Shown piece by piece: positions 22,156 to 49,137 of a DNA stretch of 61,090 nucleotides (positions within the stretch are counted from its first letter, which is position 1; every line of letters begins with the position of its first letter). Source of the DNA: Flavobacteriales bacterium (GTDB lineage Bacteria; Bacteroidota; Bacteroidia; Flavobacteriales_F; PHOS-HE28); NCBI GenBank assembly GCA_020847755.1, contig JADLBK010000175.1, positions 1-61,090 of the forward strand. The letters run 5' to 3'. The position numbers were made by a program, and so were the translations under genes. The notes beneath the pieces were generated by a model that was not told the origin of the DNA, searched no databases, and worked only from the letters and a program-made list of their open reading frames with translations.

Positions 22156-22206
22156 GATGCCAAAAGTAGATCAACGACCACTGCAGCGACTGACCGGCAT
22201 CATCCG

Positions 22207-36969: not shown

Positions 36970-38241
36970 ATGACCACCCGAGGACTATTGGGATTCGTTG
37001 TGTTCATGCTGGTCCTGGTCCTGATCGATCTGTACGCCTACAAAGGCATCAATACGGCGATGAACGGCTGGACCCAGGGAGGACGGCGCGTCGTGCGGTT
37101 GATCTACTGGGCTGTGTCCATCGGCATGCTGGCATTGATGGTCTGGGTAGCGGTGAGCATCCAGGACCTGCGCAGCACGCGGAACCACTCGTTCATGTTC
37201 TCGCTCGCCGCCCTGTTCATGCTGTTCTTCCTGCCCAAGGTGGTGATCATCCTCTTCCACGGGCTGGAGGACCTCATCGAGGGCGGTCGCTGGCTATTCG
37301 ACAAGCTCACCCCGGGCGATCCGGTCTCCACGGGCGAGCCGATCACACGGCTGAAGTTCCTTTCCCAAGTCGGTCTTGCGCTGTCGGCCATCCCCTTCGC
37401 CGGTGTGCTGTACGGCATCACCCATGGACGGCGGAATTTCCGCATCGAACGTGTGCACCTGAACGCCCCGAACCTGCCTGCAGCCTTCGACGGGCTCCGC
37501 ATCGTGCAGATCAGCGACCTGCACCTGGGCAGCTTCCCGAGCGGCACGGACATCGTGCGCAAAGGCGTGGACCTCATCAACAAGGAGCGCCCCGACCTGA
37601 TCCTCTTCACCGGTGACATGGTGAACGACTTCGCGGACGAGGCCGAAGCCTGGGTGGACACGCTGAAAGACCTGCAGGCGCGCATCGGCAAGTACTCCAT
37701 CCTGGGCAACCACGACTACTCGGACTATGCACGTTGGGATTCGCAGCAGGGCAAGCAGGCTAACCTGGAGCGGCTGAAGCGCCACCATGCCGCCATGGGC
37801 TTCCGGCTGATGCTCGACGAGAACACCCGGATCGAGCGCGGCGACGCGGCCATCACCCTGCTCGGCGTGCAGAACTGGGGCCGGCGTTTCCAGCAGTACG
37901 GCGACCTGGCCAAGACCCTGCATGGGCATGATCCCTCGACGTACCGGATCCTGATGAGCCATGATCCCACCCATTGGGAGGAACAGGTCCTCGGCACCGG
38001 CATCGACCTCACCCTGAGCGGGCATACGCATGGGGCGCAGTTCGGCATCACCATCGCCGGTCAGACGTACAGCCCCGCTCAATGGGTGTACAAGCGATGG
38101 GCGGGGCTGTACACTGAGGGTGCTCAGCATCTTTACGTGAACCGGGGCTTCGGCTTCATCGGCTTCCCAGGCCGTGTGGGCATGCCACCGGAGATCACGG
38201 TGATCGAACTGCGAAAGGGCGGGGAGGCGCCACATGCGTGA
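36970..38241 (+). CDS. membrane-anchored metallophosphoesterase (calcineurin-like, YkuE-type)
   Basis: It has N-terminal TM helices followed by the motifs IVQISDLHLG, FTGDMVND, LGNHDY, and LSGHTHG. Confidence 0.9.
   Translation: MTTRGLLGFVVFMLVLVLIDLYAYKGINTAMNGWTQGGRRVVRLIYWAVSIGMLALMVWVAVSIQDLRSTRNHSFMFSLAALFMLFFLPKVVIILFHGLEDLIEGGRWLFDKLTPGDPVSTGEPITRLKFLSQVGLALSAIPFAGVLYGITHGRRNFRIERVHLNAPNLPAAFDGLRIVQISDLHLGSFPSGTDIVRKGVDLINKERPDLILFTGDMVNDFADEAEAWVDTLKDLQARIGKYSILGNHDYSDYARWDSQQGKQANLERLKRHHAAMGFRLMLDENTRIERGDAAITLLGVQNWGRRFQQYGDLAKTLHGHDPSTYRILMSHDPTHWEEQVLGTGIDLTLSGHTHGAQFGITIAGQTYSPAQWVYKRWAGLYTEGAQHLYVNRGFGFIGFPGRVGMPPEITVIELRKGGEAPHA
38180..38218 (+). repeat. 39-bp direct repeat, copy 1 (inside the 3' end of the metallophosphoesterase gene)
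   Basis: GCATGCCACCGGAGATCACGGTGATCGAACTGCGAAAGG is identical to 39894-39932. Confidence 0.9.
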
Positions 38242-39845
38242 TGCAGCGCCCCGCCGATCAGCCCCGACCGGTTGAAACGCGGTCCTCCCGATGGCCCGGG
38301 CTGCGTTTGAGCCGCTCCGGTGGATTGGCCCTGTTAATTGTGATCCTTTCGCTCCAGGCCTGGACCTATCGATATCAGGAGATCCTGTTCGCCCGACCGC
38401 AGGGCTATCACGCCTGGAGGCAGAGTGACTGCCTGTCGATGGCGTGGCACTACATGCAGCTCGATCTGCCTTGGTGGGATGGAAGAATGCACTACCTCGG
38501 AACAGAGGGCACCGGGCGCGCCTTGAGCGAACTGCCTCTGCTCCCCTACCTCATCGGGAAAGTGTGGCGGTCCACCGGTCAGCAGGAGTGGCTGTACCGG
38601 GCGACCGTCCTGCTCCTCTCCATCTCCGGGTTGATCTCCCTCTACTTCACGGTCAATACGCTGCTGAAGGACGGCGTGCTGGCGGCGTGGGTATCCGCCT
38701 TCCTGTTCACCTCACCCATGGTGGCGTACTACGCGAACAACTTCCTTTCGAACGCCGCCGCCCTCGCTTTCGTGCTCAACGGCTGGTACGCCGCCGCATC
38801 AGGAATGGAACGTTCATCTCGTCCCCGGCTCGTGGGAGCTGTGGTGCTCTTCACCCTGGCGGGGCTGCTCAAAGCCACAGCGGCGCTAAGCCTCCTTATC
38901 CTGATCGCGATCGTTCTGATCTCCTTCCTGCCGTTCCGACATGTGCTTCTCGGAACCTGGCGACCCCGACATCGGGCCGTGATATTGGTCGCCGGACTGG
39001 CGGGCCTGTTCGCCATCGCCGCATGGTACTCCTACGCCCGATGGTACAATGCGGGGCAGGCGCAAGGCGTCTTCCTCATCGGCACGCTCCCCTATTGGAG
39101 CATTCCGAAGGAGGAGCTTGCCTCCGTATGGCAAGGCATCAGCGACCACCTTCGTCGCGACTACCTGCGCCCGGACCTCTATTTCGTGCTCATGGCCATG
39201 TTCGCGCTGGCCGTGTTCGCATCTCATCGGATCCCCCGTGCGCTATGGATGGCGTTCACGCTGCTATGCCTCGGTGTTCTCTGCATCGACATTCTGTTCT
39301 TCGGCGCACTGAGGGACCATGACTATTACAGCCTCGACCAAGTGATCATCTTCCCTGCCGTCCTTCTCCTTGGCCTTCTGGCTTTGGTCCGTGGCAGCTC
39401 GGGGATAACCCGCACCTGGCCGTTCCAACTTGCTCTGTTGGTGGTGTTGGTCCACGGCACCGATTTCGCAAGGCGACGGATGACGGACCGGTACTCGACC
39501 TGGATGAACAAGGAGTACTTGACCCAGCATGAACCGCTGGGCCGAATCCAGGAAGCGCTCCTTGCCATAGGTGTCGATCGCTCTGCCCGCGTGGTGAGCG
39601 TGCCTGATATCAGCTTCAACCGAAGCCTGTATCTGATGGAACGTTCAGGCTGGACCGATTTCGATGGTCTTAGCGACGACCCCAACAAGCTCCAGGCGAA
39701 GTTGGATCAGGGCGCGCGATTCCTTTTGACCACCAACGATTCCGTGCTGCTCAAGCCATCACTCCGACCATTCCTGGCCCACCCGATCGGTCGCTTCGAG
39801 AATGTGAGGATCTTTGCGCTCGAGGTCCCTGATCGGAACCATTGA
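38241..39845 (+). CDS. polytopic membrane protein, possibly a GT-C-fold (ArnT/PMT-like) glycosyltransferase
   Basis: It has about 12 predicted TM helices and a soluble C-terminal domain. It lies entirely between the 39-bp direct repeats and is AT-richer than the flanking sequence. The start is ATG 38241 (or GTG 38238), overlapping the upstream stop. Confidence 0.65.
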   Translation: MQRPADQPRPVETRSSRWPGLRLSRSGGLALLIVILSLQAWTYRYQEILFARPQGYHAWRQSDCLSMAWHYMQLDLPWWDGRMHYLGTEGTGRALSELPLLPYLIGKVWRSTGQQEWLYRATVLLLSISGLISLYFTVNTLLKDGVLAAWVSAFLFTSPMVAYYANNFLSNAAALAFVLNGWYAAASGMERSSRPRLVGAVVLFTLAGLLKATAALSLLILIAIVLISFLPFRHVLLGTWRPRHRAVILVAGLAGLFAIAAWYSYARWYNAGQAQGVFLIGTLPYWSIPKEELASVWQGISDHLRRDYLRPDLYFVLMAMFALAVFASHRIPRALWMAFTLLCLGVLCIDILFFGALRDHDYYSLDQVIIFPAVLLLGLLALVRGSSGITRTWPFQLALLVVLVHGTDFARRRMTDRYSTWMNKEYLTQHEPLGRIQEALLAIGVDRSARVVSVPDISFNRSLYLMERSGWTDFDGLSDDPNKLQAKLDQGARFLLTTNDSVLLKPSLRPFLAHPIGRFENVRIFALEVPDRNH

Positions 39846-39937: not shown

Positions 39938-40798
39938 TCAGGCCGGGAACACCCCGGCCGACCGCTGCACGGCCCGTTCCAGCTGGACCAGGTCGAGGCC
40001 CGTGCGGATGCCACGCTCCTCAAGGCTGCGCACGAAGAGCTCCATCTGCAGGTTGCCCACCAGCTCATCCTCGGCCATGGGGCAGCCGCCGTAGCCCTTG
40101 ATGGCCCCATCGAAGCGCCGGCATCCGGCATCCCAGGCAGCCTGCGTTTTGGCGGGCCAGTTGTCCGGGCTGCAATGCAGGTGCGCACCGAACTCCACCT
40201 CGGGCAGCGCGGGGATGAGCGCGGCGAACATGGCGGTGATGTCCGCGGGCCTCGCGACGCCGACCGTATCACTGAGCGCGATGATGCGCACGCCCAGCTC
40301 CTTCACGAGCCGCTCGGTCCAGCGCAGGGCCACCTCCGCGTTCCAAGGGTCGCCGTAGGGATTTCCGAAGGCCATGCTGATGTACACCACGAGCTCCTTG
40401 CCCGCCGCCCGGGTCAGTTCGGCGATGCGCGCAATGCGGCCCCAGGAACCCTCGATGCTCGTGTTGGTGTTCCGCTGCTGGAAGGTCTCGCTGATGCTGA
40501 AGGGATAACCCAGATAGGTCACGCATTCCTGCTTCACCGCCTCCTCGGCACCACGTTCGTTGGCCACGATCACCAGCAGCTTGCTGCGCGAGCCGCTGCG
40601 GTCGATGCCGGCGAGCACCTCGGCCGTATCCGCCAGCTGCGGGATGGCCTTGGGGCTCACGAAGCTGCCGATGTCGATGGTGTCGAAGCCCACCTGCAGC
40701 AGGGTGTTCAGGTAGTCCACCTTCACGTCGGTGGGGATGAAGGGCACGATGCCTTGCATCGCATCCCGCGGACATTCGATCAGCTTCACGCTTTCCAT
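39938..40798 (-). CDS. hydroxymethylglutaryl-CoA lyase
   Basis: ..[13 protein letters not shown]... is the HMGL-like TIM-barrel opening. ..[13 protein letters not shown].., ..[12 protein letters not shown].., and ..GAHLHCSPD....[21 protein letters not shown] are also present. Confidence 0.9.
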
Positions 40799-41823
40799 CG
40801 GGCGTAGGCCTGGTTGATGCGCTTCACCAGCGCGGGTCCTTCATAGATGAGCCCGGTGTACACCTGCACCAGGTCGGCGCCAGCTTTCAGCTTCTCCATC
40901 GCCGCCTCCGCCGAATCGATGCCGCCCACGCCGATGATGACGATGGGCCGAGGCAGGCGGTCACGCAGGTAACGCACCACCTCGGTGCTGCGCTGGCGGA
41001 CCGGGGCACCGCTCACGCCCCCCGCCCCCATGGCCTCCACCTCGCCCTTCGGCGTGCGCAGGCCTTCGCGGGATATGGTGGTGTTGGTGGCGATCACGCC
41101 TGCGATGCCGCTCTCCTTCACCACGGCCACCACGTCGTCGAGCTGGGCATCCGTCAGATCCGGGGCGATCTTCAGCAGGATCGGCTTCTGCGGACCGCTT
41201 CCCGCCCGTTGCCCGTTGAGCGCATGCAAGCGCGTGAGGATCTCGAGCAAGGGCCCCTTGTCCTGCAAGGCGCGCAGGCCCGGCGTGTTCGGACTGCTCA
41301 CGTTCACCACGAAGTAGTCCACCACGGGGTACAACGCCTCGAAGCACGTCACATAGTCGTCGAGGGCCTGCTCGTTAGGCGTCACCTTGTTCTTGCCGAT
41401 GTTGCCACCGACGATGATCCCGGGCTTGCGCTTCCGCAGGCGTTCCACCGCGGCCTGCACGCCGCCGTTGTTGAAGCCCATGCGGTTGATGAGGGCGCGA
41501 TCGGCCGTGAGGCGGAAGAGCCGTGGCTGCTCGTTGCCAGGCTGGGCCCGGGGCGTCAACGTCCCGATCTCAATGAAACCGAAGCCCAGCGCGCTCAGCG
41601 CGTCGACGTGCTTCGCGTCCTTGTCCATGCCAGCGGCGAGGCCCACGGGTGAAGGGAAACGAAGGCCCATGACCTCCACGGCGGCCAAGGCGGGCGGCGG
41701 GGCACCACCCACCATGGCAACCGCTCCTGGCACCTTGGCGGCGAGCTCCAACAGGCTGAAGGTGAGGTGGTGGGCCCGCTCGGGGGTGAACCGGAAGAGC
41801 AGCGGGCGAAGGAGCGCGTACAT
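40786..41823 (-). CDS. pyrD: quinone-dependent dihydroorotate dehydrogenase (class 2)
   Basis: [19 protein letters not shown].....[17 protein letters not shown]...........GFIEIGT.TPR.QPGN..PRLFRL....[10 protein letters not shown]......NIGKNK....[13 protein letters not shown]. The start is ATG 41823, and the ORF extension to 42114 lies in repeat DNA. Confidence 0.95.
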
Positions 41824-41883
41824 CCGAGGCGAAAGTACCGGCTGTGGTGGATGCGAGTATGTGCCGTGACACGCGCTTCGGAA

Positions 41884-42764
41884 CATATGTATGGCCATAC
41901 ATACATTCTCGGCCTCGTAAACTGGTCGCAATGCCCGGTCACCAAAGGATGATCGTGGCATGGGTTTTCTCCTGGCCTGAACGGACATGACCGGGCCCGA
42001 TCCAGCCGGAAAGCCATGACTGGAAGGCGTTTCGACGCTATCGCATCTGTGGCGGACATATGTATGGCCATACATACGTCCTCGCATTTGGCCCCTCGCG
42101 CAACGCCGGGCCACCTCCGAAGATCCGGTTCCAGGAACTTTCGGGCGAGAACTGCCCTGACCTGTCCTTATCCGACCGTTAAGCCAAGCCTGGAGAGCGT
42201 TCTTCCCCCTTCACAGCATTGGAAAGCATATGTATGGCCATACATATGTCCTTGGCCACGTCAGACGGTCGCAATGCCCGGTCTCTAATGGAAGATCGTG
42301 GCATGAGCTTTCTCCTGGCCTGAACGGACATGACCGGGCCCTATCCGACCGTTAAGCCAAGCCTGGAGAGCGTTCTGCCCCCTTCACAGCATTGGAAAAC
42401 ATATGTATGGCCATACATATGTCCTTGGCCACGTCAGCCGGTCGCAATGCCCGGTCACCAAAGGATGATCGTGGCATGGGCTTTCTCCTGGCCTGAACGG
42501 ACATGACCGGGCCCGATCCGGCCGGAAAGCCATGACTGGAAAGCGTTTCACCGCTATCACATCTGTGGCGGACATCTGTATGGCCATGCATACGTCCTCG
42601 CATTTGGCCCCTCGCGCAACGCCGGGCCACCTCCGAAGATCCGGTTCCAGGAACTTTCGGGCGAGAACTGCCCTGACCTGTCCTTATCCGACCGTTAAGC
42701 CATGCTTGGAGCTCGTTCCGCCCCCATTACACCTTTGGAAAACATATGTATGGCCATACATACT
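41884..42764. repeat. phased array of six copies of the palindrome (CA)TATGTATGGCCATACATA(TG), separated by ~150-bp spacers of two alternating repeated types (A, B, A/B hybrid, A, B)
   Basis: Palindrome centres are at 41894/5, 42067/8, 42237/8, 42410/1, 42583/4 (degenerate copy) and 42753/4. The spacings are 173, 170, 173, 173 and 170 bp. The spacers are mutually ~90% identical within each type. Confidence 0.9.
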
Positions 42765-42782
42765 TCCCGGGTTCGAAGGACC

Positions 42783-45020
42783 TCACTCCAACGTCATCCG
42801 CACACCCAGAACCCCCCGCACACCCTGCAGCGGCGCGTACATGTATGAAGTATCGAAGGTGTGCCCGTGCGGATTCGTCGCCGGATCGTCCACCGTGCGG
42901 TCGAACGGATCGAAGGGCCTCATCAAGGGGTCTTCGGGCACGAAGTCGAGCAGGTTCTTCACCCCGCCGTACACCTCGAAGCGCTCGTTGAAGCGGTGTT
43001 TCACCTGCACGTTGAGCAGCATGTACCAAGGGGAGTGCGCCTGACGGTGGTCGGTGGGCTGCACGGGCAGCCGCATCGGGCCATACCACTGACCAGTGAG
43101 GTCCACCGTGAAGTGGTGCGGCAGCTTCTGGCTCAGCGCGAAGGTGCCCTGCCATGCTGGAGCGAAGAACTGGTCCTCGCGCAGAGTACCTTCCACGGTG
43201 TACACGTCCATCCAGGTGGCTCCGGCGATGGCCCGGAAGTCATGGCCGATGCGGGCCTCCACATTCAGGCTGGCACCTTGGGCGATGCCGTACCCGTGGA
43301 GGTTGCGGTACACGATGAGGTCCGGGTCGGTGTCGTAGTCAGGCAGGATCCGGTTGCTGAACTGCGTGAGAAACAGCGAGGCGTCAAGTCCGATGAAGCG
43401 CTTCTCCCCAGGCCACTTCCGCGCCACGTTGAGGGAGGCGTTCCACGAGCGCTCGGGCAGCAGGTCCTCGGCGATCACCACGCTACGGGCGCCGGTGAGC
43501 GCGGCATGCTCCTCGGTGAAGAGGTTCACCACGCGGTAGCCCGTGCCCGCATGGGCCCGAACGGTGATACGCCCATTGGGCGCGAGTTTGTACGCCACCC
43601 GGGGCGAATGCACCAGGCCGTGGTCCCGGTCATGGTCCAGCCGGTAGCCGAGGAGCACCACGCTGCGGGGCGAAAGCATCCACTCATCCTGAACGAAGAC
43701 GCCCGGCAGGGGCCTGCGCTCGGCCTTGTTCCGCCTCGCGGGTGGTTCGCCCACGGCCGTGGCCGGGGTATTGTCGTCGTAGTAGGTGTTGCGATAGGCC
43801 AGGCCGGCCAGCACATCGTGTCGGTGCGCGAAGCGGTGGCGCCAGACCAGCTGCGCGAAGAGCACGCGCTGCACCGCATCGTACGGTGTGGTGCCATACC
43901 AGCTATCCTGATGGTGGCCGTTGGCCGAGACCTGCAAGGTGACCTGTTCCCGGAGGGGGAGCTGGTACTGACCGATCAGCTCCCAGCGCCGCGTGACGAT
44001 CGTCTCCCCGTAGAGGCTGTCCCCACCGGCGAAGGCCGGTGTCCAGTCCATCTGCCCTCCCCAACGATCCTCGCCCACCAGCCGCACCGCGAGCCCGGCC
44101 ACACGCTTGTTCCGCCGCTGCACGGTAAGTTTCTGGAATACGGAGATGCGCTTCTGCAGGGTCACATCCGTGAACCCGTCCTCGTTGCGATCACGCGGGT
44201 CGTCGTACAGGTATCCGTTGATCCCGGTGAGGCTGCGTATCCTCCCCTTCCCCAGGCCGATGCCCACATCAGCGCTGTGCTCCATCCAGGTGGTGCTCAT
44301 CAGGTCGAGGCTCAGCCGCGGAGCGATCACGGGGTCCTTGGTGATCACGTTGATGATGCCGCCCATGGCCTCGCTGCCGTAGAGCGCGCTTCCGGGACCC
44401 TTCACCACCTCCACGCGTTCGATGAGGCTTGTCGGGATGCCGCTGAGACCGTACACCGTGCTGAGACCGCTGACGATGGGCATGCCATCGATGAGCACCA
44501 GTGTGTACGGCCCCTCCATGCCGTTGATGTGGATGTCGCCGGTATTGCAGACGCTGCAGTTGAGCTGGGGCCGCACCCCGTTCACCATGCCGACGGCATC
44601 CAGCAGCGCCGGGCCCGGGTTCTTGCGGAAGAGCGTGGGCGTGATCACCTCCACCGGCACCGGACTGGCATCGCGCGACACCGGCGCCAGGGTGCCCGTC
44701 ACCACCACCTCGTCCAACGCGGTGGCCGATACCACCAGGAGCAGGATGCCCAGATCAAGGGTGTCCAGAAAGTTCACCTGAAGCACGCGCTCCGATGCCT
44801 GATGGCCCATGGCCTCGATGCGCAAGCGGACGGGACCGGACGGAAGCGGCCCCACCAGAAATCGGCCATCAGCATCAGCCGCAGTTCCGAGCTCCCCCGC
44901 TCGCAGCGTCGCGAAAGGCAGCGCACCCTCCGGGCCGGCCACCGTTCCGCGTAACACCGACTGCGCCCGCATGCCGAGGGCACTGAGAAGGCATACCAGT
45001 AGAACGTTCGACCGTGGCAT
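42783..45020 (-). CDS. TonB-dependent receptor with N-terminal CarboxypepD_reg-like domain
   Basis: The signal is MPRSNVLLVCLLSALGMRAQ, followed by SVLRGTVAG.EGALPFATL (CarboxypepD_reg). The plug motifs are DEVVVTG and IERVEVVKGPGSALYGSEAMGGIINVITK. A long beta-barrel follows. Confidence 0.9.
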   Translation of the reverse strand: MPRSNVLLVCLLSALGMRAQSVLRGTVAGPEGALPFATLRAGELGTAADADGRFLVGPLPSGPVRLRIEAMGHQASERVLQVNFLDTLDLGILLLVVSATALDEVVVTGTLAPVSRDASPVPVEVITPTLFRKNPGPALLDAVGMVNGVRPQLNCSVCNTGDIHINGMEGPYTLVLIDGMPIVSGLSTVYGLSGIPTSLIERVEVVKGPGSALYGSEAMGGIINVITKDPVIAPRLSLDLMSTTWMEHSADVGIGLGKGRIRSLTGINGYLYDDPRDRNEDGFTDVTLQKRISVFQKLTVQRRNKRVAGLAVRLVGEDRWGGQMDWTPAFAGGDSLYGETIVTRRWELIGQYQLPLREQVTLQVSANGHHQDSWYGTTPYDAVQRVLFAQLVWRHRFAHRHDVLAGLAYRNTYYDDNTPATAVGEPPARRNKAERRPLPGVFVQDEWMLSPRSVVLLGYRLDHDRDHGLVHSPRVAYKLAPNGRITVRAHAGTGYRVVNLFTEEHAALTGARSVVIAEDLLPERSWNASLNVARKWPGEKRFIGLDASLFLTQFSNRILPDYDTDPDLIVYRNLHGYGIAQGASLNVEARIGHDFRAIAGATWMDVYTVEGTLREDQFFAPAWQGTFALSQKLPHHFTVDLTGQWYGPMRLPVQPTDHRQAHSPWYMLLNVQVKHRFNERFEVYGGVKNLLDFVPEDPLMRPFDPFDRTVDDPATNPHGHTFDTSYMYAPLQGVRGVLGVRMTLE

Positions 45021-45039
45021 GGCGCAAAGATGGTTCAAT

Positions 45040-45071
45040 TTAGTCTTGTCTAATATTTTGTTATACATTTG
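45040..45071 (+). promoter_or_regulatory. candidate Bacteroidota-type promoter (-33 TTG / -7 TAnnTTTG) in the AT-rich divergent intergenic region
   Basis: TACATTTG at 45064-45071 matches TAnnTTTG exactly, 10 nt before ATG 45081. A TTG lies ~20 nt upstream. TTAGTCTTGTCTAA (45040-45053) has only short inverted ends and is a weak operator candidate. Confidence 0.4.
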
Positions 45072-45080
45072 TCGCACTTC

Positions 45081-45740
45081 ATGTTCAGCCGAAGCGAAGA
45101 AGACCACATCAAGGCCGTGCATGGCCTCCTTCAGGATGCCGGGCAGGCCTTCACGAAGGACATCGCCGAGCGGCTCAACACGCGCGCCAGCAGTGTCACC
45201 GACATGCTGAAGAAGCTCGCTGCGAAGGGGCTGGTGAAGCACGCGCCCTACCACGGGGCCACCCTCACGGCGAAGGGCCGCCGGCATGCGTTGACGCTAG
45301 TGCGCAGGCACCGGTTATGGGAGACCTTCCTGGTGCAGCGACTGGGCTTCACCTGGGATGAGGTTCACGAGGTGGCCGAGCAGTTGGAGCATGTGAGCAG
45401 CGAGCCGCTGATCGAACGCCTGGACGCGTATTTGGGCCATCCACGGTTCGATCCGCACGGCGACCCCATTCCCGATCGCGACGGCCGGATGCCCGAGCGC
45501 GTCACCGTGCACCTCACCGAGGCGCTGGTGGGGGTCCGCCACCAGCTGGTGGCCGTTAAGGATGGCAGCGACGCGCTGCTTCGGCTGCTCGATGCCAAAG
45601 GGCTCACGATCGGGCGCGTCTTCACCCTCACCGCGCGCCAGGACTTCGATGGCAGCCTGCAGCTCACCTGGCGGGGTGGCGGCTGCGACCTCAGTGCGCA
45701 GGTGGCCGCGCACCTCCTCACCGTACCCGACAACGCATGA
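45081..45740 (+). CDS. DtxR/MntR-family metal-dependent transcriptional regulator
   Basis: It has a winged-HTH (..TKDIAERLNTRASSVTDMLKKLAAKGLV.), a metal-binding/dimerisation helix (..RRHRLWETFLV..LGF.WDEVHEVAEQLEH), and a C-terminal FeoA/SH3-like domain. Confidence 0.85.
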   Translation: MFSRSEEDHIKAVHGLLQDAGQAFTKDIAERLNTRASSVTDMLKKLAAKGLVKHAPYHGATLTAKGRRHALTLVRRHRLWETFLVQRLGFTWDEVHEVAEQLEHVSSEPLIERLDAYLGHPRFDPHGDPIPDRDGRMPERVTVHLTEALVGVRHQLVAVKDGSDALLRLLDAKGLTIGRVFTLTARQDFDGSLQLTWRGGGCDLSAQVAAHLLTVPDNA

Positions 45741-46558
45741 ACCAGATCATCCCGTTCTTCGAACGGATCGACCCAGTGTGGGCCGCACTGCTGGCCACCA
45801 CCTTCACCTGGCTGGTCACCGCCGCCGGAGCCGCGGTGGTCTTCCTGTTCAAGGAGCTGTCGCGCAAGTGGCTGGACGGCATGCTGGGCTTCACCGGTGG
45901 GGTGATGGTGGCTGCGAGTTTCTGGAGCCTGCTGGCGCCCAGTATCGACATGAGCGCGCGCATGGGCTTCCCCGAGTGGTTGCCACCGGCGGTGGGTTTT
46001 GCCGTGGGCGCGCTGTTCCTGTTCGCCTTGGACAAGTATGTGCCGCACCTGCACATCAACTTCGACCCCAGCCTGAAGGAAGGACCGGACACAGGGTTGC
46101 GGCGCAGCACCCTCCTCATCCTGGCCATCACGCTCCACAACATCCCCGAAGGCCTCGCCGTGGGCGTGCTGTTCGGCGGGGTGGCGGCCGGCATCCCGGA
46201 AGCCACCATCGCCGGTGCGGTCACCCTGGCCATCGGCATCGGGCTGCAGAACTTCCCGGAGGGCATCGCGGTGAGCATGCCGTTGCGACGGCTTGGCGTG
46301 AGCCGCGCGCGCAGCTTTTTCTACGGTCAGCTCAGCGCCATCGTGGAACCCGTGGCCGGCGTGGTGGGTGCGATGGCCGTGCTGTGGATGCAGCCCATCC
46401 TGCCCTTCGCCCTGGCCTTCGCCGCCGGCGCCATGATCTACGTGGTGGTGGAGGAGGTGATCCCCGAGACGCAGCAGGACAAGCACACCGACATCGCCAC
46501 GCTGGGCTTCATCGGCGGCTTCATCGTGATGATGGTGCTCGACGTGGCCCTGGGCTGA
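45737..46558 (+). CDS. ZIP-family divalent metal transporter (ZupT-like)
   Basis: It carries the ..LAITLHNIPEGLAVG.. and ..GIGLQNFPEGIAVS.. motifs and has 8 TM helices. It overlaps the regulator gene by 4 nt. Confidence 0.9.
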   Translation: MNQIIPFFERIDPVWAALLATTFTWLVTAAGAAVVFLFKELSRKWLDGMLGFTGGVMVAASFWSLLAPSIDMSARMGFPEWLPPAVGFAVGALFLFALDKYVPHLHINFDPSLKEGPDTGLRRSTLLILAITLHNIPEGLAVGVLFGGVAAGIPEATIAGAVTLAIGIGLQNFPEGIAVSMPLRRLGVSRARSFFYGQLSAIVEPVAGVVGAMAVLWMQPILPFALAFAAGAMIYVVVEEVIPETQQDKHTDIATLGFIGGFIVMMVLDVALG

Positions 46559-46566
46559 CGGCGCGA

Positions 46567-47805
46567 TCAACCCACCGCGAGGCGCCCGATGGCCTCCGCT
46601 GCCGTCGCCACGCCGTCCTCTCCGACCATGCGCATACGCAACGCGGACACCTGTTGGGAGTACGAAGGCGTATCCAGCACCTCACGGATATGCGCGGCCA
46701 GGGCGGTCACCGTGGCCGATCGACGGGGGATGGGACGCGGCGCCACCCCCAACGCATGCAGTCGGCGGGCCCACCACGGCTGGTCGAAGCCATGCGGCAC
46801 CACCACCGAGGGTGCACCGGCCCGGGCCACGGCATGGGCCGTACCGGCACCGCCGTGGTGCACCACTGCAGCACACCGCGGGAACAGCACGTCATGCGGG
46901 GCGCGATGCAGCACCAGCAGATCCCTGTGGCCGTGCACCGGTCCCAGTTCGGGACCGACCTGCACGATGGCCCGCACGCCGGCCCGCGCCACAGCACCGC
47001 GCATCAGGTCCCAGGCTTCCTTCGCGCCATAGGTCGCGCACGAGCCGAAGGTGAGGTGCACCGGTGCCGGGCCCGCCTCCAGGAACGTGCTGACCTCCTC
47101 GCTCAGCACCCGATCCTCCGGCAGCTGCTCACGCCTCCACGCTCCGGTCACCACCGTCCCGGGCGCCTTCAGGGGCGGCATCAACGCCGCACTGGCGGCC
47201 AACAGGTTCAGCGTTGGCGAGCGGAACCCCTCGGTGAGCAGGCTTCGCAGCGGCGCCAGTCCACGTTCGCGGTGCAACCGTTCGCTTACGGGGTAGAGCG
47301 CCCGGGTCATCACGGCATCGCCCAAGCGCCACAGGGCGGCATCCGCCCAGCCGCCCAACGATCGGCCGAGCGGGGGCAGCATCCCCGGAATGGCCTGCGG
47401 GGAGAAGGCCACGGAAACACGCGGAGTGCCGTGCTGCAGCGCCGCGGTGTGCAGGGTGCGGTTCAGCATGTGGCCCACCACGATGTCGTTGCCGCGGCAG
47501 AGCGCCTCACCGGCCTCCAGCAAGGCCCCGGCAATGGGCTCATGGAAGCGCGCCAACAGCGCACGGAGCTGCACGGTGGGCGACGAGGAGGCCGTCAGAG
47601 CGTACGGGTCCACGGCTCGTCCGAACGGTCCGCCCACCCGGTGCACGGTCACACCCGTTCCGGCAAGGCGCCGGGCATGGTCACCGTCGTCCACGGCCGT
47701 GTGGACAAGGGTGACCTGATGGCCTGCACCTTGAAGGCCTGCGGCCAGGGCCACGAACGGGGCCACATCGCCTTCGGTGCCCCAGGTCTGAAGGCCGATG
47801 CGCAT
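46567..47805 (-). CDS. family 1 glycosyltransferase (MGT/UDP-glycosyltransferase-like)
   Basis: It starts MRIGLQTWGTEGDVAPFVALAAGLQGAGHQVTL. The C-terminal motif is ..VVHHGGAGTAHAVARAGAPSVVVPHGFDQPWWA. Confidence 0.85.
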   Translation of the reverse strand: MRIGLQTWGTEGDVAPFVALAAGLQGAGHQVTLVHTAVDDGDHARRLAGTGVTVHRVGGPFGRAVDPYALTASSSPTVQLRALLARFHEPIAGALLEAGEALCRGNDIVVGHMLNRTLHTAALQHGTPRVSVAFSPQAIPGMLPPLGRSLGGWADAALWRLGDAVMTRALYPVSERLHRERGLAPLRSLLTEGFRSPTLNLLAASAALMPPLKAPGTVVTGAWRREQLPEDRVLSEEVSTFLEAGPAPVHLTFGSCATYGAKEAWDLMRGAVARAGVRAIVQVGPELGPVHGHRDLLVLHRAPHDVLFPRCAAVVHHGGAGTAHAVARAGAPSVVVPHGFDQPWWARRLHALGVAPRPIPRRSATVTALAAHIREVLDTPSYSQQVSALRMRMVGEDGVATAAEAIGRLAVG

Positions 47806-47809
47806 CGCC

Positions 47810-48322
47810 TCAGAGCTTGCCGTTCGCCCGATTGGTGGCGATGAAGCGGGTGATGCGGTCCTTGAGGGCCGGGTCCTTCACGTCCTTCAGCTTGCGCTCC
47901 ACCAGGGCCAGGTCCTCCGTCTTGTTGGCGTCGTAGCCCACGATCGGCGGCACGTTCACCTGGATGCTGAGGCGCAGGAACCGAAGCTCGGCGTTGGTGA
48001 GGTCGTGCGCGATCGCCTTCTCCAGCATCGACTTTCCGCCGTTGAAGTGCACCAGGCGGCTCAACGGATCGAAGGCGTGGCGGCCGCGGGCCATGCGCAC
48101 CGCACCATGGTAACCCAGGAGCAGCGCGCTGCCACTGCTGCCGGCCCGGTCGAAGCGCTCCACATAACGGTCGCAGACATCCTCATCAGCGAACACGGCG
48201 CCGATCTCCCGTCGGATGTCCTGCAACAGGCCGCCCTCCTCCTGGGCGCTCGCACGACCGGACAATGCCGGCACCGCCACGACGATCGCAACGAAGAGGC
48301 ACCGCCAGCACCACGCCTGCAT
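47810..48322 (-). CDS. hypothetical secreted protein
   Basis: It has a signal-like N-terminus (CLFVAIVVAVPALSGRASAQ) and a helical remainder. I recognise no family. Confidence 0.55.
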   Translation of the reverse strand: MQAWCWRCLFVAIVVAVPALSGRASAQEEGGLLQDIRREIGAVFADEDVCDRYVERFDRAGSSGSALLLGYHGAVRMARGRHAFDPLSRLVHFNGGKSMLEKAIAHDLTNAELRFLRLSIQVNVPPIVGYDANKTEDLALVERKLKDVKDPALKDRITRFIATNRANGKL

Positions 48323-48331
48323 GGCGCAAAG

Positions 48332-49108
48332 CTACCGCCGTCGGAGGGCTGCGTTGAGCAGAGTGCGCATCACCGTGTCGTCCAGCGGGTCCAGGTAGCG
48401 GGCGCCGGTGCTGCGGCCCTGTGCGTCGAAGCGCACCCAGGCCATGCGGGCATCCCTGCGGATCAGCTCCAGATGGAACGGCCGCTCGGTGTACTGTTCG
48501 ATGAACAGGAACCGCGATCGCGGATGACGCGCCACCAGGCGGTCCATCACCCCTTGGAAATGCGCCGGGGCCTGCCGCTCCGGCAGCCGGAAGGCCGGTC
48601 GGAAGCCACCCGCAAGCCGGCGGCGCTTGTCCTGTTCGTTCACCACGGTGGTGACGAACAGGATGGGCGCGTCCGTGGCCAGCAGGGCGTTGAAGCGTTC
48701 CACACAACGCACGTAATAGGCGTGATGGCGGGCGAAGGTGCGCGGATCGCGATGGCCGAACAGGCTGCGGTGGTAGTCGCGGTGGCCCCCGTCCGTCCAC
48801 AAGGCGATCATGCGGCTCCGGTCCAGGAAGGTGCGGAAGCCGTCGTCGAGAACGTGCTCGATGAGCGCCGGGCTCACGGCCAGCCAGTCGAACGGATAGG
48901 ACGCCTGCTTGGCCCCCACGGCCTTGATGGTCCAGGCCGTGGAACAGTTCTGTCCCAGGGACACCACCGCCGCGGGCTCCTCCACCGCCCATGTGAACAG
49001 CTGCTCCTGAAGGGCCGCCGTGGCGGCGTTCACGGCCGCCACGTCCGCAGGAGTGCGCCGCACCCGCCCCCGCCCGAGCCGCAGCAGGGCATGCGCCAGG
49101 TCGTCCAT
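48332..49108 (-). CDS. DUF1796-like protein (putative papain-like cysteine peptidase fold)
   Basis: ..VVSLGQNCSTAWTIKAVGAKQASYPFDWL.. resembles the DUF1796 N-terminal signature. The start is at the internal ATG 49108, just downstream of the preceding gene's stop. Confidence 0.55.
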   Translation of the reverse strand: MDDLAHALLRLGRGRVRRTPADVAAVNAATAALQEQLFTWAVEEPAAVVSLGQNCSTAWTIKAVGAKQASYPFDWLAVSPALIEHVLDDGFRTFLDRSRMIALWTDGGHRDYHRSLFGHRDPRTFARHHAYYVRCVERFNALLATDAPILFVTTVVNEQDKRRRLAGGFRPAFRLPERQAPAHFQGVMDRLVARHPRSRFLFIEQYTERPFHLELIRRDARMAWVRFDAQGRSTGARYLDPLDDTVMRTLLNAALRRR

Positions 49109-49137
49109 CCACGCCTTCACACCGCGATGATAGCCGA

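What the first reader, a model, noticed from the sequence alone, without database searches (positions are those of the whole stretch)
41824..42782. Phased array of six near-identical palindromes (CATATGTATGGCCATACATATG) every 170-173 bp, with two alternating repeated spacer types, filling the pyrD / TonB-receptor intergenic region
The array is strictly periodic:
- The 18-bp perfect palindrome TATGTATGGCCATACATA (22 bp perfect in copies 3 and 4) occurs six times.
- Its centres are at 41894/5, 42067/8, 42237/8, 42410/1, 42583/4 (a degenerate copy with 2 substitutions) and 42753/4.
- The spacings are therefore 173, 170, 173, 173 and 170 bp.

The ~150-bp spacers are themselves repeats of two unrelated types:
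- Type A lies at ~41906-42056 and 42422-42572.
- Type B lies at ~42079-42226 and 42595-42742.
- One spacer is a recombinant: 42249-42341 is A-like and 42342-42399 is B-like, with the junction at an ATCCG microhomology.
- The overall layout is P-A-P-B-P-A/B-P-A-P-B-P, about 2.5 copies of a ~343-bp unit.

Type A units have structure of their own:
- They have extended inverted termini (CCATACATATGTCC[TTG]GCCAC ... GTGGCGGACATATGTATGG).
- They contain an internal perfect 9-bp inverted repeat, GCCCGGTCA-N46-TGACCGGGC.

The region is clearly AT-richer; one 60-nt stretch I counted was ~52% G+C, against ~67% in a coding stretch elsewhere. I did not see this palindrome anywhere else in the 61 kb.

The array is not explained by any gene model, is not a CRISPR, and does not look like a simple terminator or promoter. 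Three interpretations fit:
- Head-to-tail or nested MITEs that share half-palindromic ends.
- An array of phased operator sites for a dimeric DNA-binding protein; a DtxR-family regulator is encoded 2.3 kb away.
- A tandem family of structured small RNA genes.
Basis: seen in the sequence. Interest (0 to 1): 0.8.

Follow-up and report, generated by a model that had tools for sequence, protein, structure and literature searches.

The report
Palindrome array: likely MarR regulator sites
The six evenly spaced palindromes between the TonB-receptor gene and pyrD are real, and they are most likely binding sites of a MarR-family regulator encoded elsewhere in the genome. They are not mobile elements, small-RNA genes or sites of the nearby DtxR regulator, and the same sites recur in conserved intergenic clusters across a clade of high-GC Flavobacteriales.

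Summary
**Observation.** It is confirmed, with one correction. There are six copies of a 26-bp symmetric palindrome (RAnRTATGTATGG|CCATACATAYnTY) at 170/173-bp spacing, and none elsewhere in the 61 kb. The A and B spacers are not unrelated. They are diverged paralogues (61-63% identity), so the array is five tandem copies of one ~172-bp unit.

**The spacers.**
- They are specific to each locus and non-coding.
- They show no excess predicted RNA structure, no promoter box and no Rfam match.
- The MITE and small-RNA readings therefore fail.

**The palindrome.** It is a clade-wide feature of high-GC Flavobacteriales MAGs.
- About a dozen intergenic clusters per genome sit at conserved (orthologous) positions, beside ordinary housekeeping genes.
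- In all 19 loci examined that carry a MarR-family gene of this subfamily (8 lineages, down to 44% identity), a palindrome lies 20-31 bp upstream of that gene's ATG.
- The palindrome sequence changes lineage by lineage, as do residues of the recognition helix, and the neighbouring extra copies use the same variant.

**Best explanation.** The palindrome is this regulator's operator. The window array is an outlying operator cluster that expanded by recombination between palindromes.

**Other points.**
- The DtxR link is not supported.
- Unexplained: palindrome-to-palindrome spacing is conserved to 0-2 bp between species in all but one comparison (7 bp), while spacer sequence is randomised.
- All evidence is computational, and no binding has been shown.

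The parts
41882..41907 (.). Palindrome P1 (26 bp, centre 41894/5), 71 nt upstream of the pyrD ATG
41908..42054 (.). Spacer A1
   Evidence: 93% identical to A2 and 61% to B1. No coding, structure or promoter signal.
42055..42080 (.). Palindrome P2 (centre 42067/8)
42081..42224 (.). Spacer B1, a diverged paralogue of A
   Evidence: z = 10 against shuffles
42225..42250 (.). Palindrome P3 (centre 42237/8; perfect over 22-23 bp)
42251..42397 (.). Hybrid spacer (A-like left part, B-like right part). It is what a 170-bp deletion across one palindrome would leave.
42398..42423 (.). Palindrome P4 (centre 42410/1; perfect over 22-23 bp)
42424..42570 (.). Spacer A2
42571..42596 (.). Palindrome P5 (centre 42583/4; two substitutions in the 18-bp core)
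42597..42740 (.). Spacer B2
42741..42766 (.). Palindrome P6 (centre 42753/4), 29 nt after the stop codon of the TonB-dependent receptor gene
40786..41823 (-). pyrD (quinone-dependent dihydroorotate dehydrogenase, 345 aa), the gene downstream of the array. A degenerate -7 box TACTTTCG lies at 41837-41830.
   Evidence: (P0002 is 100% identical)
42783..45020 (-). TonB-dependent receptor gene, upstream of the array on the same strand
   Evidence: The 745-aa length matches the orthologue in L088.
45021..45081 (.). Divergent promoter region between the receptor gene and the DtxR-family gene. It has its own TTAG..CTAA box and a TACATTTG -7 box, and no palindrome of the array type. It is not part of the system and is listed because it argues against the DtxR reading.

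Best explanation
**What it is.** Each palindrome (P) is a binding site (operator) for a dimer of a clade-specific MarR-family winged-helix regulator. That regulator is encoded elsewhere in the genome and represses its own gene through the same site.

**Wider context.** Related high-GC Flavobacteriales carry about a dozen intergenic P clusters per genome. Each has 2-6 sites, usually 100-250 bp apart, and they are inherited vertically at orthologous positions.

**The window array.**
- It descends from an ancestral P-172 bp-P module between the TonB-receptor gene and pyrD.
- One old duplication gave units A and B. A more recent duplication of the 343-bp A+B pair followed, and then one 170-bp deletion produced the hybrid unit.
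- All these steps are explained by unequal recombination between the identical palindromes.
- The DNA between the palindromes is spacer: its sequence drifts freely but its length is held.

**Inferred, not shown.** When occupied by the regulator, the array probably separates the presumably metal-regulated receptor transcript from pyrD, or controls read-through into it. Alternatively it tunes pyrD expression from about 71 nt upstream of the start codon, perhaps through contacts between neighbouring bound dimers.
For: **P is the conserved entity, not the unit.**
- The motif is a 26-bp symmetric palindrome. 17 of its positions carry at least 1.5 bits, and nothing is conserved beyond +/-13 (108 sites).
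- Within the window, A and B have drifted to 61-63% identity, yet five of six 18-bp cores are identical.

**Link to the MarR gene.**
- A 143-aa MarR-family gene lies next to P in six different MAGs. Its Pfam MarR score is 45.5 bits against a cutoff of 24.6. The AlphaFold model has pLDDT 89.8, and all top PDB fold matches are MarR-family proteins, several of them solved bound to DNA.
- In 19 loci from 8 lineages (44-100% identity) a palindrome is centred 20-31 bp upstream of its ATG, whatever lies further upstream.

**Co-variation between site and protein.** The half-site changes with lineage, as do residues of the recognition helix:
- TATGTATGG with LDQSTVTKTLEKM
- CATGCATGG with ..KALEKM
- ATTCATGG with LGQSTITKAVEKM
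- TTTGCATGG with LDPSTITKALEKM and with LDASTISRTLDKL
- ATGTATGT|ACATACAT with LDPSTITRMLDKL

In every lineage the extra copies near the MarR gene use that lineage's own variant.

**Distribution in genomes.**
- All clusters examined are intergenic, in tandem (32), divergent (10) and convergent (5) gene contexts.
- They sit beside ordinary housekeeping genes.
- They are at orthologous positions in different species. This indicates stable, selected sites rather than recent insertions.

**Spacing.** P-P spacing is conserved to 0-2 bp between orthologous arrays in all but one pair (224 vs 217 bp), although the spacers are at background identity.

**Copy-number change at P boundaries.** The 99%-identical strain L052 carries exactly the first B and the last A unit of the window array.
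Against: - There is no binding data. Everything rests on comparative sequence analysis.
- The MarR gene is not in the window, and I could not check that this MAG encodes it.
- The site carries far more information, and is copied far more exactly, than ordinary operators. Arrays of 5-6 operators in promoter-less DNA are not typical of a regulon. Ascertainment by an exact 18-mer search inflates the apparent conservation.
- Five clusters lie between convergent genes, where no promoter is expected.
- The flanking genes share no functional theme.
- Within-palindrome symmetry at position +/-10 is somewhat above expectation (66/109 against 48.9). A hairpin model would also predict this.
- Lineage-specific variants could arise by concerted evolution of a repeat family without any protein partner.
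- P1 lies about 71 nt upstream of the pyrD ATG, beyond the core promoter, which is not a classical repressor position.
Confidence: 0.6

Rival explanations
1. P is a REP/BIME-like repetitive extragenic palindrome. It would act as a DNA or RNA hairpin (terminator, mRNA stabiliser, or gyrase/IHF-type structural site) and be spread by an unidentified enzyme. The copy in front of the MarR gene would then be just another copy.
For: - P is intergenic only and often starts 15-20 nt after a stop codon. Stop-to-centre distances cluster at 26-32 nt.
- It occurs between convergent genes.
- The sequence is near-identical across copies, and within-site symmetry is weakly enriched.
- It can form a -13 kcal/mol hairpin.
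- Variants are lineage-specific, as in REP families.
Against: - The site upstream of the MarR gene keeps its position through 8 lineages while its sequence changes.
- Ten clusters lie between divergently transcribed genes.
- There is no U-tract, and the terminator scan finds nothing.
- The stem is AU-rich and weak for a 67% G+C genome.
- There are only about 12 loci per genome, with 100-250-bp spacers, rather than hundreds of copies with short linkers.
- Positions are orthologous and stable between species.
- No transposase or RAYT appears among the best-represented families of the flanking genes.
Confidence: 0.15
2. P is the core site of a site-specific recombinase. The segments between sites would be invertible or excisable cassettes, as with Bacteroides invertible promoters, Xer/dif modules or integron cassettes.
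For: - A perfect palindrome with a symmetric centre resembles two recombinase-binding arms.
- N units are always bounded by N+1 complete sites.
- Copy number differs between 99%-identical strains, with breakpoints at P.
- Segment sizes of 100-250 bp resemble invertible promoters (my recollection of the Bacteroides literature, not checked here).
Against: - About 16 orthologous unit comparisons show no inverted unit.
- No cassette is shared between different loci of a genome.
- No integrase or invertase appears among the listed flanking families.
- The window units contain no promoter box.
- Homologous recombination between 26-bp identical repeats is enough to explain the copy-number change.
Confidence: 0.07
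3. The array is a set of head-to-tail or nested MITEs that share half-palindromic ends.
For: - Unit sizes are MITE-like.
- Type A units have 14-nt inverted termini.
Against: - Unit interiors are unique to each locus.
- Unit ends do not co-vary.
- The outer palindromes are complete, so a solo unit carries two full palindromes rather than two half-sites.
- No target-site duplication is visible at the filled versus empty junctions.
- Orthologous positions are stable across species.
Confidence: 0.03
4. The units are a tandem family of small-RNA or small-peptide genes.
For: - The units are tandem and of regular size.
- There is a 9-bp internal inverted repeat in A.
Against: - There is no Rfam match.
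- Folding z-scores are about 0 for 71 units on both strands.
- The inverted repeat is not conserved in paralogue B.
- There is no TAnnTTTG box in the array.
- There is no excess of open frames and no codon periodicity.
- Orthologous units are at background identity.
Confidence: 0.03
5. P is the operator of the neighbouring DtxR-family regulator.
For: - The gene lies 2.3 kb away.
- DtxR-type boxes are also roughly 19-bp palindromes (general knowledge).
Against: - The regulator's own divergent promoter (45021-45081) has a different TTAG..CTAA box and no P.
- Relatives keep the DtxR-receptor-pyrD synteny but have no array (L053, L054/55).
- P clusters elsewhere sit beside unrelated genes.
Confidence: 0.02

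Closest known systems
Autoregulated MarR-family repressors and their palindromic operators (MarR/marO, OhrR, MgrA, SlyA, AbfR, MexR)
   Same: - It is a small winged-helix protein with the MarR fold.
- A (pseudo)palindromic site of 20-29 bp overlaps the promoter of its own gene. Here the site is centred 20-31 bp before the ATG, next to a -7-like box.
- It has an invariant N-terminal cysteine in helix 1.
   Different: - The site is a very high-information 26-bp palindrome, copied almost exactly dozens of times per genome.
- It stands in clusters of 2-6 separated by 100-250 bp of spacer, including places without promoters.
- HMMER places the conserved Cys two residues away from MgrA Cys12, so redox sensing is only a guess.
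- The protein does not reach the cutoff of any NCBIfam equivalog model.
REP/BIME elements of enterobacteria and pseudomonads
   Same: - They are repeated extragenic palindromes that occur in clusters.
- They are often found just after genes.
- They are bound by host proteins.
- The sequences are clade-specific.
   Different: - P is perfect, symmetric and AT-rich, not a G+C-rich imperfect stem.
- There are about a dozen loci per genome rather than hundreds.
- Spacers are long and locus-specific rather than short defined linkers.
- No RAYT was seen.
- P is linked to a transcription-factor gene.
Centromere-like arrays of palindromic protein-binding sites (F plasmid sopC; lacO/tetO arrays used as decoys or roadblocks)
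   Same: - They are tandem arrays in which each repeat carries one palindromic site for a dimeric DNA-binding protein.
- Arrays of bound repressors are known to block polymerases (PMC1636447, found).
   Different: - The P arrays are chromosomal and occur at many loci.
- The period is 100-250 bp rather than about 43 bp.
- No partition ATPase is associated.
- The arrays are natural rather than engineered.
Invertible promoters of Bacteroides flanked by conserved inverted repeats (Mpi-type)
   Same: - The phylum is the same.
- Conserved inverted repeats bracket intergenic segments of roughly 150-250 bp at about a dozen loci (recalled from the literature, not checked here).
   Different: - No orientation polymorphism was seen.
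- There is no promoter box inside the window units.
- No recombinase was seen.
- The sites are self-palindromic.

Membership tests
MarR-family regulator with an autoregulatory operator (the protein partner) | MarR-type winged helix-turn-helix domain | tested here: met
   Pfam PF01047 scores 45.5 bits against a cutoff of 24.6 (E 6.8e-12), and PF12802 scores 42.7 bits.
MarR-family regulator with an autoregulatory operator (the protein partner) | MarR fold: long N- and C-terminal helices around a wHTH with a beta wing | tested here: met
   The AlphaFold2 model has pLDDT 89.8, with helices 2-32, 38-49, 55-61, 66-78, wing strands 82-95 and helices 97-142. All 50 listed PDB matches are MarR-family structures at probability 1.00. 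Dimerisation was not modelled.
MarR-family regulator with an autoregulatory operator (the protein partner) | Palindromic site overlapping the promoter of its own gene | tested here: met
   In 19 of 19 loci (8 lineages) a palindrome is centred 20-31 bp upstream of the ATG, and its sequence co-varies with lineage.
MarR-family regulator with an autoregulatory operator (the protein partner) | Demonstrated protein-DNA binding and repression | not testable with these tools
   This needs EMSA, DAP-seq or ChIP-seq, plus expression data.
MarR-family regulator with an autoregulatory operator (the protein partner) | The regulator is encoded in the same genome as the window array | not tested
   There is no homologue in the 61-kb window.
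1-Cys OhrR/MgrA/SarZ redox-sensing subgroup | Reactive cysteine at the conserved helix-1 position | tested here: inconclusive
   Cys11 is invariant in 20 sequences, but HMMER aligns it two residues from the MgrA cysteine. The OhrR equivalog model scores 33 bits against a cutoff of 200.
REP/BIME | Short imperfect G+C-rich palindromes present in very many copies, clustered with short defined linkers | tested here: not met
   P is a perfect AT-rich palindrome. There are 11-12 loci per MAG, and spacers are 100-250 bp and locus-specific.
REP/BIME | Cognate RAYT (IS200/IS605-like) transposase | not tested
   None appears among the best-represented Pfam families of 62 flanking genes. Each list shows only the top 25 families, and whole genomes were not scanned.
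MITE | Dispersed copies sharing internal sequence, terminal inverted repeats and target-site duplications | tested here: not met
   No inter-locus similarity between units. No co-variation between unit ends. No duplication at the filled versus empty junctions.
CRISPR array | Unique 25-50-bp spacers between 23-50-bp repeats, with cas genes and a leader | tested here: not met
   Spacers are 144-147 bp and are themselves repeated. The neighbours are pyrD and a TonB-dependent receptor gene.
Structured small-RNA gene family | Match to a known RNA family, or conserved secondary structure, with its own promoter | tested here: not met
   Rfam gives no match at E <= 10. Mean folding z is about 0. There is no -7 box in the array.
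Invertible segment or recombination cassette | Orientation or position polymorphism of the segment, and a cognate recombinase | tested here: not met
   All orthologous units are collinear. No cassette is shared between loci. No recombinase appears in the listed flanking families. Read-level data were not available.
DtxR/MntR operator | The site is present in the regulator's own or its target promoter | tested here: not met
   The 61-bp divergent promoter between the DtxR-family gene and the receptor gene lacks P and has a different palindrome.

The most novel reading that the evidence does not exclude
The MarR-family protein and its palindromes form a genome-wide architectural system rather than an ordinary regulon. 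Clusters of very high-affinity sites would be held at locus-specific, selectively maintained distances, while the DNA between them is free to drift. Neighbouring bound dimers would bridge, loop or wrap the spacer. The result would be conditional (ligand- or redox-released) insulators, roadblocks or decoy reservoirs between transcription units. That would be a bacterial counterpart of insulator or decoy arrays, expanding and contracting by recombination between sites.
Probability: 0.2. Interest if true: 0.85.

Novelty: new variant of a known kind. Interest (0 to 1): 0.62.

Why it matters
**If the regulator binds these sites.** This would be a natural case in which one transcription factor's operator has been multiplied into conserved intergenic arrays across a whole bacterial clade, with protein and site co-evolving. 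It would give a ready-made specificity series: eight site variants matched to eight recognition-helix variants.

**Spacing without sequence.** Conserved spacing with unconserved sequence points to a DNA-geometry function such as looping, insulation, roadblocking or titration. That is little documented for bacterial chromosomes.

**Annotation.** These arrays in Flavobacteriales MAGs should not be called MITEs, CRISPRs or small-RNA genes. Gene callers wrongly extend the MarR gene through the palindrome (N-terminal 'MYGHTYV').

**Limits.** The organisms are uncultured and every step beyond the sequence comparison is inference.

Tried and rejected
- **Rfam.** Both the gathering-threshold search and a permissive search (E <= 10) found nothing in the array.
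- **Sigma-70 promoter and intrinsic-terminator scan.** 0 hits. The scan is not designed for Bacteroidota promoters, so I also scanned for TAnnTTTG and found none in the array.
- **Helical phasing of spacings.** A Rayleigh test over periods of 9-13 bp showed no signal at 10.5-11 bp. The best period was 9.5 bp (nR^2 = 7.2), which I do not consider significant after multiple testing and non-independence.
- **IHF-like bend sites in spacers.** They are enriched overall (6 hits against 0.09 expected), but the hits fall in only 5 of 73 units (4 independent) and none is in the window. This is not a general feature.
- **Small-ORF hypothesis.** Rejected.
- **Homology between window units and orthologous units of L001, L019 and L044.** Undetectable, z <= 2.9.
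- **Intergenic-length control using tblastx anchors.** The result was noisy, because many gaps fall inside genes or anchor on P itself. I use it only qualitatively.
- **Inferring arrays from N-terminal extensions of pyrD homologues.** This failed. The length differences come from an internal low-complexity insert.
- **Literature.** A search for the sequence itself gave 0 papers. Two keyword searches found nothing describing such arrays.
- **Viral contigs.** One exact match only.
- **Exact look-up of the window's pyrD.** It failed because I had included three extra N-terminal codons.
- **Functional theme among flanking genes.** None found.
Full report
**1. The observation**

The 18-bp palindrome TATGTATGGCCATACATA occurs at 41886, 42059, 42229, 42402, 42575 (two substitutions) and 42745. 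It occurs nowhere else in the 61,090-bp window, even at three mismatches, against 0 expected. A search with the 14-bp core adds nothing credible.

- The spacings are 173, 170, 173, 173 and 170 bp. TRF reports a 173-bp period.
- The region is AT-richer, at 0.54-0.58 G+C against 0.668 for the window.
- It lies between the stop codon of a TonB-dependent receptor gene (42783..45020, minus strand) and the start of pyrD (40786..41823, minus strand).

One detail is wrong. A and B are not unrelated. They align end to end at 61-63% identity, with score 21 against -30 +/- 5 for shuffles. The array is therefore five tandem copies of a single ~172-bp unit.

- An old duplication produced A and B.
- A later duplication copied the 343-bp A+B pair (copies are 93% identical).
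- One 170-bp deletion produced the hybrid unit.

**2. What is conserved is the palindrome, not the unit**

A scan of one genome per species found 51 stretches of DNA with the exact 18-mer.

- About ten are single hits in unrelated low-GC genomes. That is roughly what chance predicts for an 18-mer in 596 Gb (my estimate).
- The rest come from a handful of high-GC (59-68%) 'Flavobacteriales bacterium' MAGs, with 11-12 loci in each of the two best-sampled genomes.
- There the palindrome almost always occurs in clusters of 2-6, mostly 100-250 bp apart.

Aligning 108 sites gives a 26-bp symmetric motif, RAnRTATGTATGG|CCATACATAYnTY, with no conservation beyond +/-13.

The DNA between palindromes is specific to each locus.

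- All-vs-all BLAST finds similarity only within an array or between orthologous loci of different MAGs.
- The two ends of a unit do not co-vary, with 30/66 symmetric against 29.7 expected. The two halves of one palindrome weakly do, with 66/109 against 48.9.

The spacers also show no sign of being genes.

- They fold no better than shuffles. The mean z-score is about 0 for 71 units on both strands.
- They have no excess of open frames and no codon periodicity.
- They have no Rfam match.
- In the window they contain no TAnnTTTG -7 box. Seven of the nine such boxes in the window lie 4-16 nt before a gene or a tRNA.

This removes the MITE and small-RNA readings.

**3. The locus in relatives**

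The window is a MAG contig. Its pyrD product is identical to MCC6401482.1.

| Locus | pyrD identity to window | State of the receptor-pyrD junction |
|---|---|---|
| L052 | 99% | P-B-P-A-P: exactly the first B and the last A of the window array |
| L001 | 87% | P-171 bp-P, with homologous outer flanks |
| L019, L044 | not measured (flanks 81% and 87% aa identity by tblastx) | P-172 bp-P |
| L088 | 85% | P-172 bp-P |
| L053 | 94% | No array: receptor stop, 21 nt containing a perfect TACCTTTG box, then the pyrD ATG |
| L054, L055 | 92% | No array (same 21-nt junction seen in L054) |

- L052 differs from the window either by a deletion between palindromes or by collapse during assembly.
- The spacers of L001 and of L019/L044/L088 show no detectable homology to A or B, or between those two lineages (z <= 2.9).

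The module is therefore old. Some lineages have lost it. Its palindromes and its length are kept while its interior is randomised.

**4. The link to a MarR-family regulator**

One 'unit' of 505 bp turned out to contain a 143-aa gene.

- It has a MarR domain at 45.5 bits against a cutoff of 24.6.
- Its AlphaFold model (pLDDT 89.8) matches only MarR-family structures. These include the DNA complexes of AbfR, MarR, PecS and MftR.

Orthologues of this gene lie next to the palindrome in six different MAGs. I collected more orthologues from metagenomes and assemblies. In 19 of 19 loci, representing eight lineages down to 44% identity, a palindrome is centred 20-31 bp upstream of the ATG. In several loci a -7-like box follows it directly.

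The palindrome changes with lineage, as do residues of the recognition helix:

| Half-site | Recognition helix |
|---|---|
| TATGTATGG | LDQSTVTKTLEKM |
| CATGCATGG | LDQSTVTKALEKM |
| TATGCATGG | LDQSTVTKTIDRM |
| ATTCATGG | LGQSTITKAVEKM |
| TTTGCATGG | LDPSTITKALEKM and LDASTISRTLDKL |
| TTGCTTGC\|GCAAGCAA | VVPSTITRMLNSL |
| ATGTATGT\|ACATACAT | LDPSTITRMLDKL |

- In nearly every lineage the additional palindromes around the gene use that lineage's own variant. The exception is L066, a 1.2-kb contig on which only the one site was found.
- These extra copies number 2-4, upstream and/or downstream of the gene, at spacings of about 71-239 bp.
- The position relative to the MarR start is constant whether the upstream neighbour is a gene end or another repeat unit. 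The relation is therefore to the MarR promoter.

This is the pattern expected of an autoregulated repressor and its operator.

By contrast, the DtxR-family gene 2.3 kb from the array has its own TTAG..CTAA box and a TACATTTG -7 box in its 61-bp divergent promoter, and no palindrome of the array type. Relatives keep that synteny without the array.

**5. Genomic behaviour of the clusters**

- All clusters examined are intergenic and occur between tandem (32), divergent (10) and convergent (5) gene pairs.
- The flanking genes are ordinary housekeeping genes. Examples are thiolase, 3-hydroxyacyl-CoA dehydrogenase, an epimerase, FKBP, an RlmL-type methyltransferase, an SRP GTPase, shikimate dehydrogenase and receptors.
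- They share no functional theme, and no transposase or integrase appears among the listed families.
- Many clusters are at orthologous positions in different species.

P-P spacing is conserved between orthologous arrays:

| Orthologous locus set | Spacings (bp) |
|---|---|
| Receptor-pyrD junction | 170/173, 171, 172, 172, 172 |
| L003 / L035 | 181 / 183 |
| L013 / L028 | 217 / 216 |
| L015 / L024 | 132 / 132 |
| L023 / L037 | 229 / 228 |
| L016 / L047 | 218 / 218 |
| L012 / L041 | 121 / 120 |
| L018 / L030 | 224 / 217 |
| Upstream of the MarR gene (four MAGs) | 121-128 at each of three positions (one third unit is 245) |
| Upstream of the MarR gene (distant L087 lineage) | 123, 125 |

- The spacers themselves are at background identity in most pairs.
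- The parts of the same intergenic regions that are not bounded by palindromes differ by 3-84 bp (a rough control).
- There is no common helical phase.

I have no tested explanation for this locus-specific conservation of spacing.

**6. Most likely mechanism**

Shown by comparison:

- The palindrome is a selected, vertically inherited 26-bp site.
- Its sequence co-evolves with one MarR-family protein.
- It occupies that protein's own promoter.

Inferred:

- The protein binds the palindrome as a dimer. The 26-bp extent is in the range I recall for MarR-DNA complexes (not checked here).
- The window array is an outlying cluster of such sites that expanded by unequal recombination between identical palindromes.
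- When occupied, it insulates pyrD from read-through from the receptor gene, or regulates that read-through. Alternatively it modulates pyrD from about 71 nt upstream of the ATG.
- The invariant Cys11 suggests thiol-based release. Its alignment to the MgrA cysteine is off by two residues, so this is only a suggestion.

**7. Rivals**

- **REP/BIME-like hairpin element.** This is the main rival. It is helped by the position just after stop codons, the convergent contexts, the near-identity of copies and the weak within-site symmetry. It is weakened by the fixed site at the MarR promoter through eight lineages, the ten divergent contexts, the weak AU-rich stem without a U-tract, the low copy number and the long unique spacers.
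- **Recombination-site reading.** There is no inversion, no shared cassette and no recombinase to support it.
- **MITE, small-RNA and DtxR readings.** These fail specific tests (sections 2 and 4).

**8. Novelty**

- Autoregulated MarR operators and repeated extragenic palindromes are both known.
- A single operator multiplied into conserved, spacing-constrained intergenic arrays across a clade, co-varying with its regulator, is not something I could find described. The sequence search returned no papers, and keyword searches found nothing.
- I rate it a new variant of a known kind. It is of moderate-to-high interest and wholly dependent on experimental confirmation of binding.

Noticed in passing
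window 45021-45081: The 61-bp divergent region between the TonB-receptor gene and the DtxR-family gene holds an imperfect palindrome, TTAGTCTTGTCTAA. It also holds a perfect Bacteroidota -7 box, TACATTTG (45064-45071), 10 nt before the DtxR-family ATG. This is probably that regulator's own operator and promoter.
   Followed up: partly
window, whole (positions 22168, 34678, 36916, 45064, 48334, 58633, 59207): Seven of the nine perfect TAnnTTTG boxes in the window lie 4-16 nt upstream of an ORF start or of tRNA-Val. Very short or absent 5' leaders appear to be the rule in this genome.
   Followed up: partly
L053 1244-1270; L054 3976-4003; window 41830-41837: In relatives without the array, the receptor stop codon and the pyrD ATG are 21 nt apart, and a perfect TACCTTTG box sits in that gap. 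The window has the degenerate TACTTTCG at the equivalent place. pyrD therefore keeps a start-proximal promoter with or without the array.
   Followed up: partly
orthologous arrays in L001, L003, L012, L013, L015-L019, L021, L023, L024, L028, L030, L035, L037, L041, L044, L047, L060, L061, L087, L088: Palindrome-to-palindrome spacing is conserved to 0-2 bp between species (one pair differs by 7 bp), while spacer sequence is at background identity. Each locus keeps its own spacing, and there is no shared helical phase. Unexplained.
   Followed up: partly
P0122, P0139, P0141 and other database entries; L025 3735-3767: Gene callers often extend the MarR gene by 11 codons ('MYGHTYV...'). They are translating the palindrome itself, which gives mis-annotated 154-aa proteins.
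   Followed up: no
pyrD homologues P0011, P0014, P0041, P0061, P0069, P0117: Many orthologues carry a 19-30-aa low-complexity insert inside pyrD (for example ...SGELRVASAAQAPHSPPGTQHS...). The window's 345-aa protein lacks it.
   Followed up: no
L021 1015-1260; L030 1210-1427; L034 1591-1722; L060 278-403; L061 2729-2854: Five spacers contain matches to the IHF consensus WATCAANNNNTTR, 6 hits against 0.09 expected from shuffles. The matches lie in AT-rich islands. The window has none.
   Followed up: partly
L042 4683-4941: A 258-bp 'unit' contains a decayed palindrome (ATGTATGGACATACAT) at its middle. It is really two ~130-bp units, which shows that palindromes can erode within arrays.
   Followed up: no
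L006 3299-3452; L050 5133-5206: In a lower-GC relative (MAG OH_CBlB_34, 57% G+C) the same palindromes stand only 56-70 bp apart. This is well below the roughly 100-bp minimum seen elsewhere.
   Followed up: no
window 38238-39845 (+): This long ORF near the array has no Pfam match. In L052 a 534-aa gene without any Pfam hit is called at the equivalent place. Two further no-hit ORFs, 45562-47844 (+) and 47798-49141 (+), overlap better-supported genes and may be spurious.
   Followed up: no
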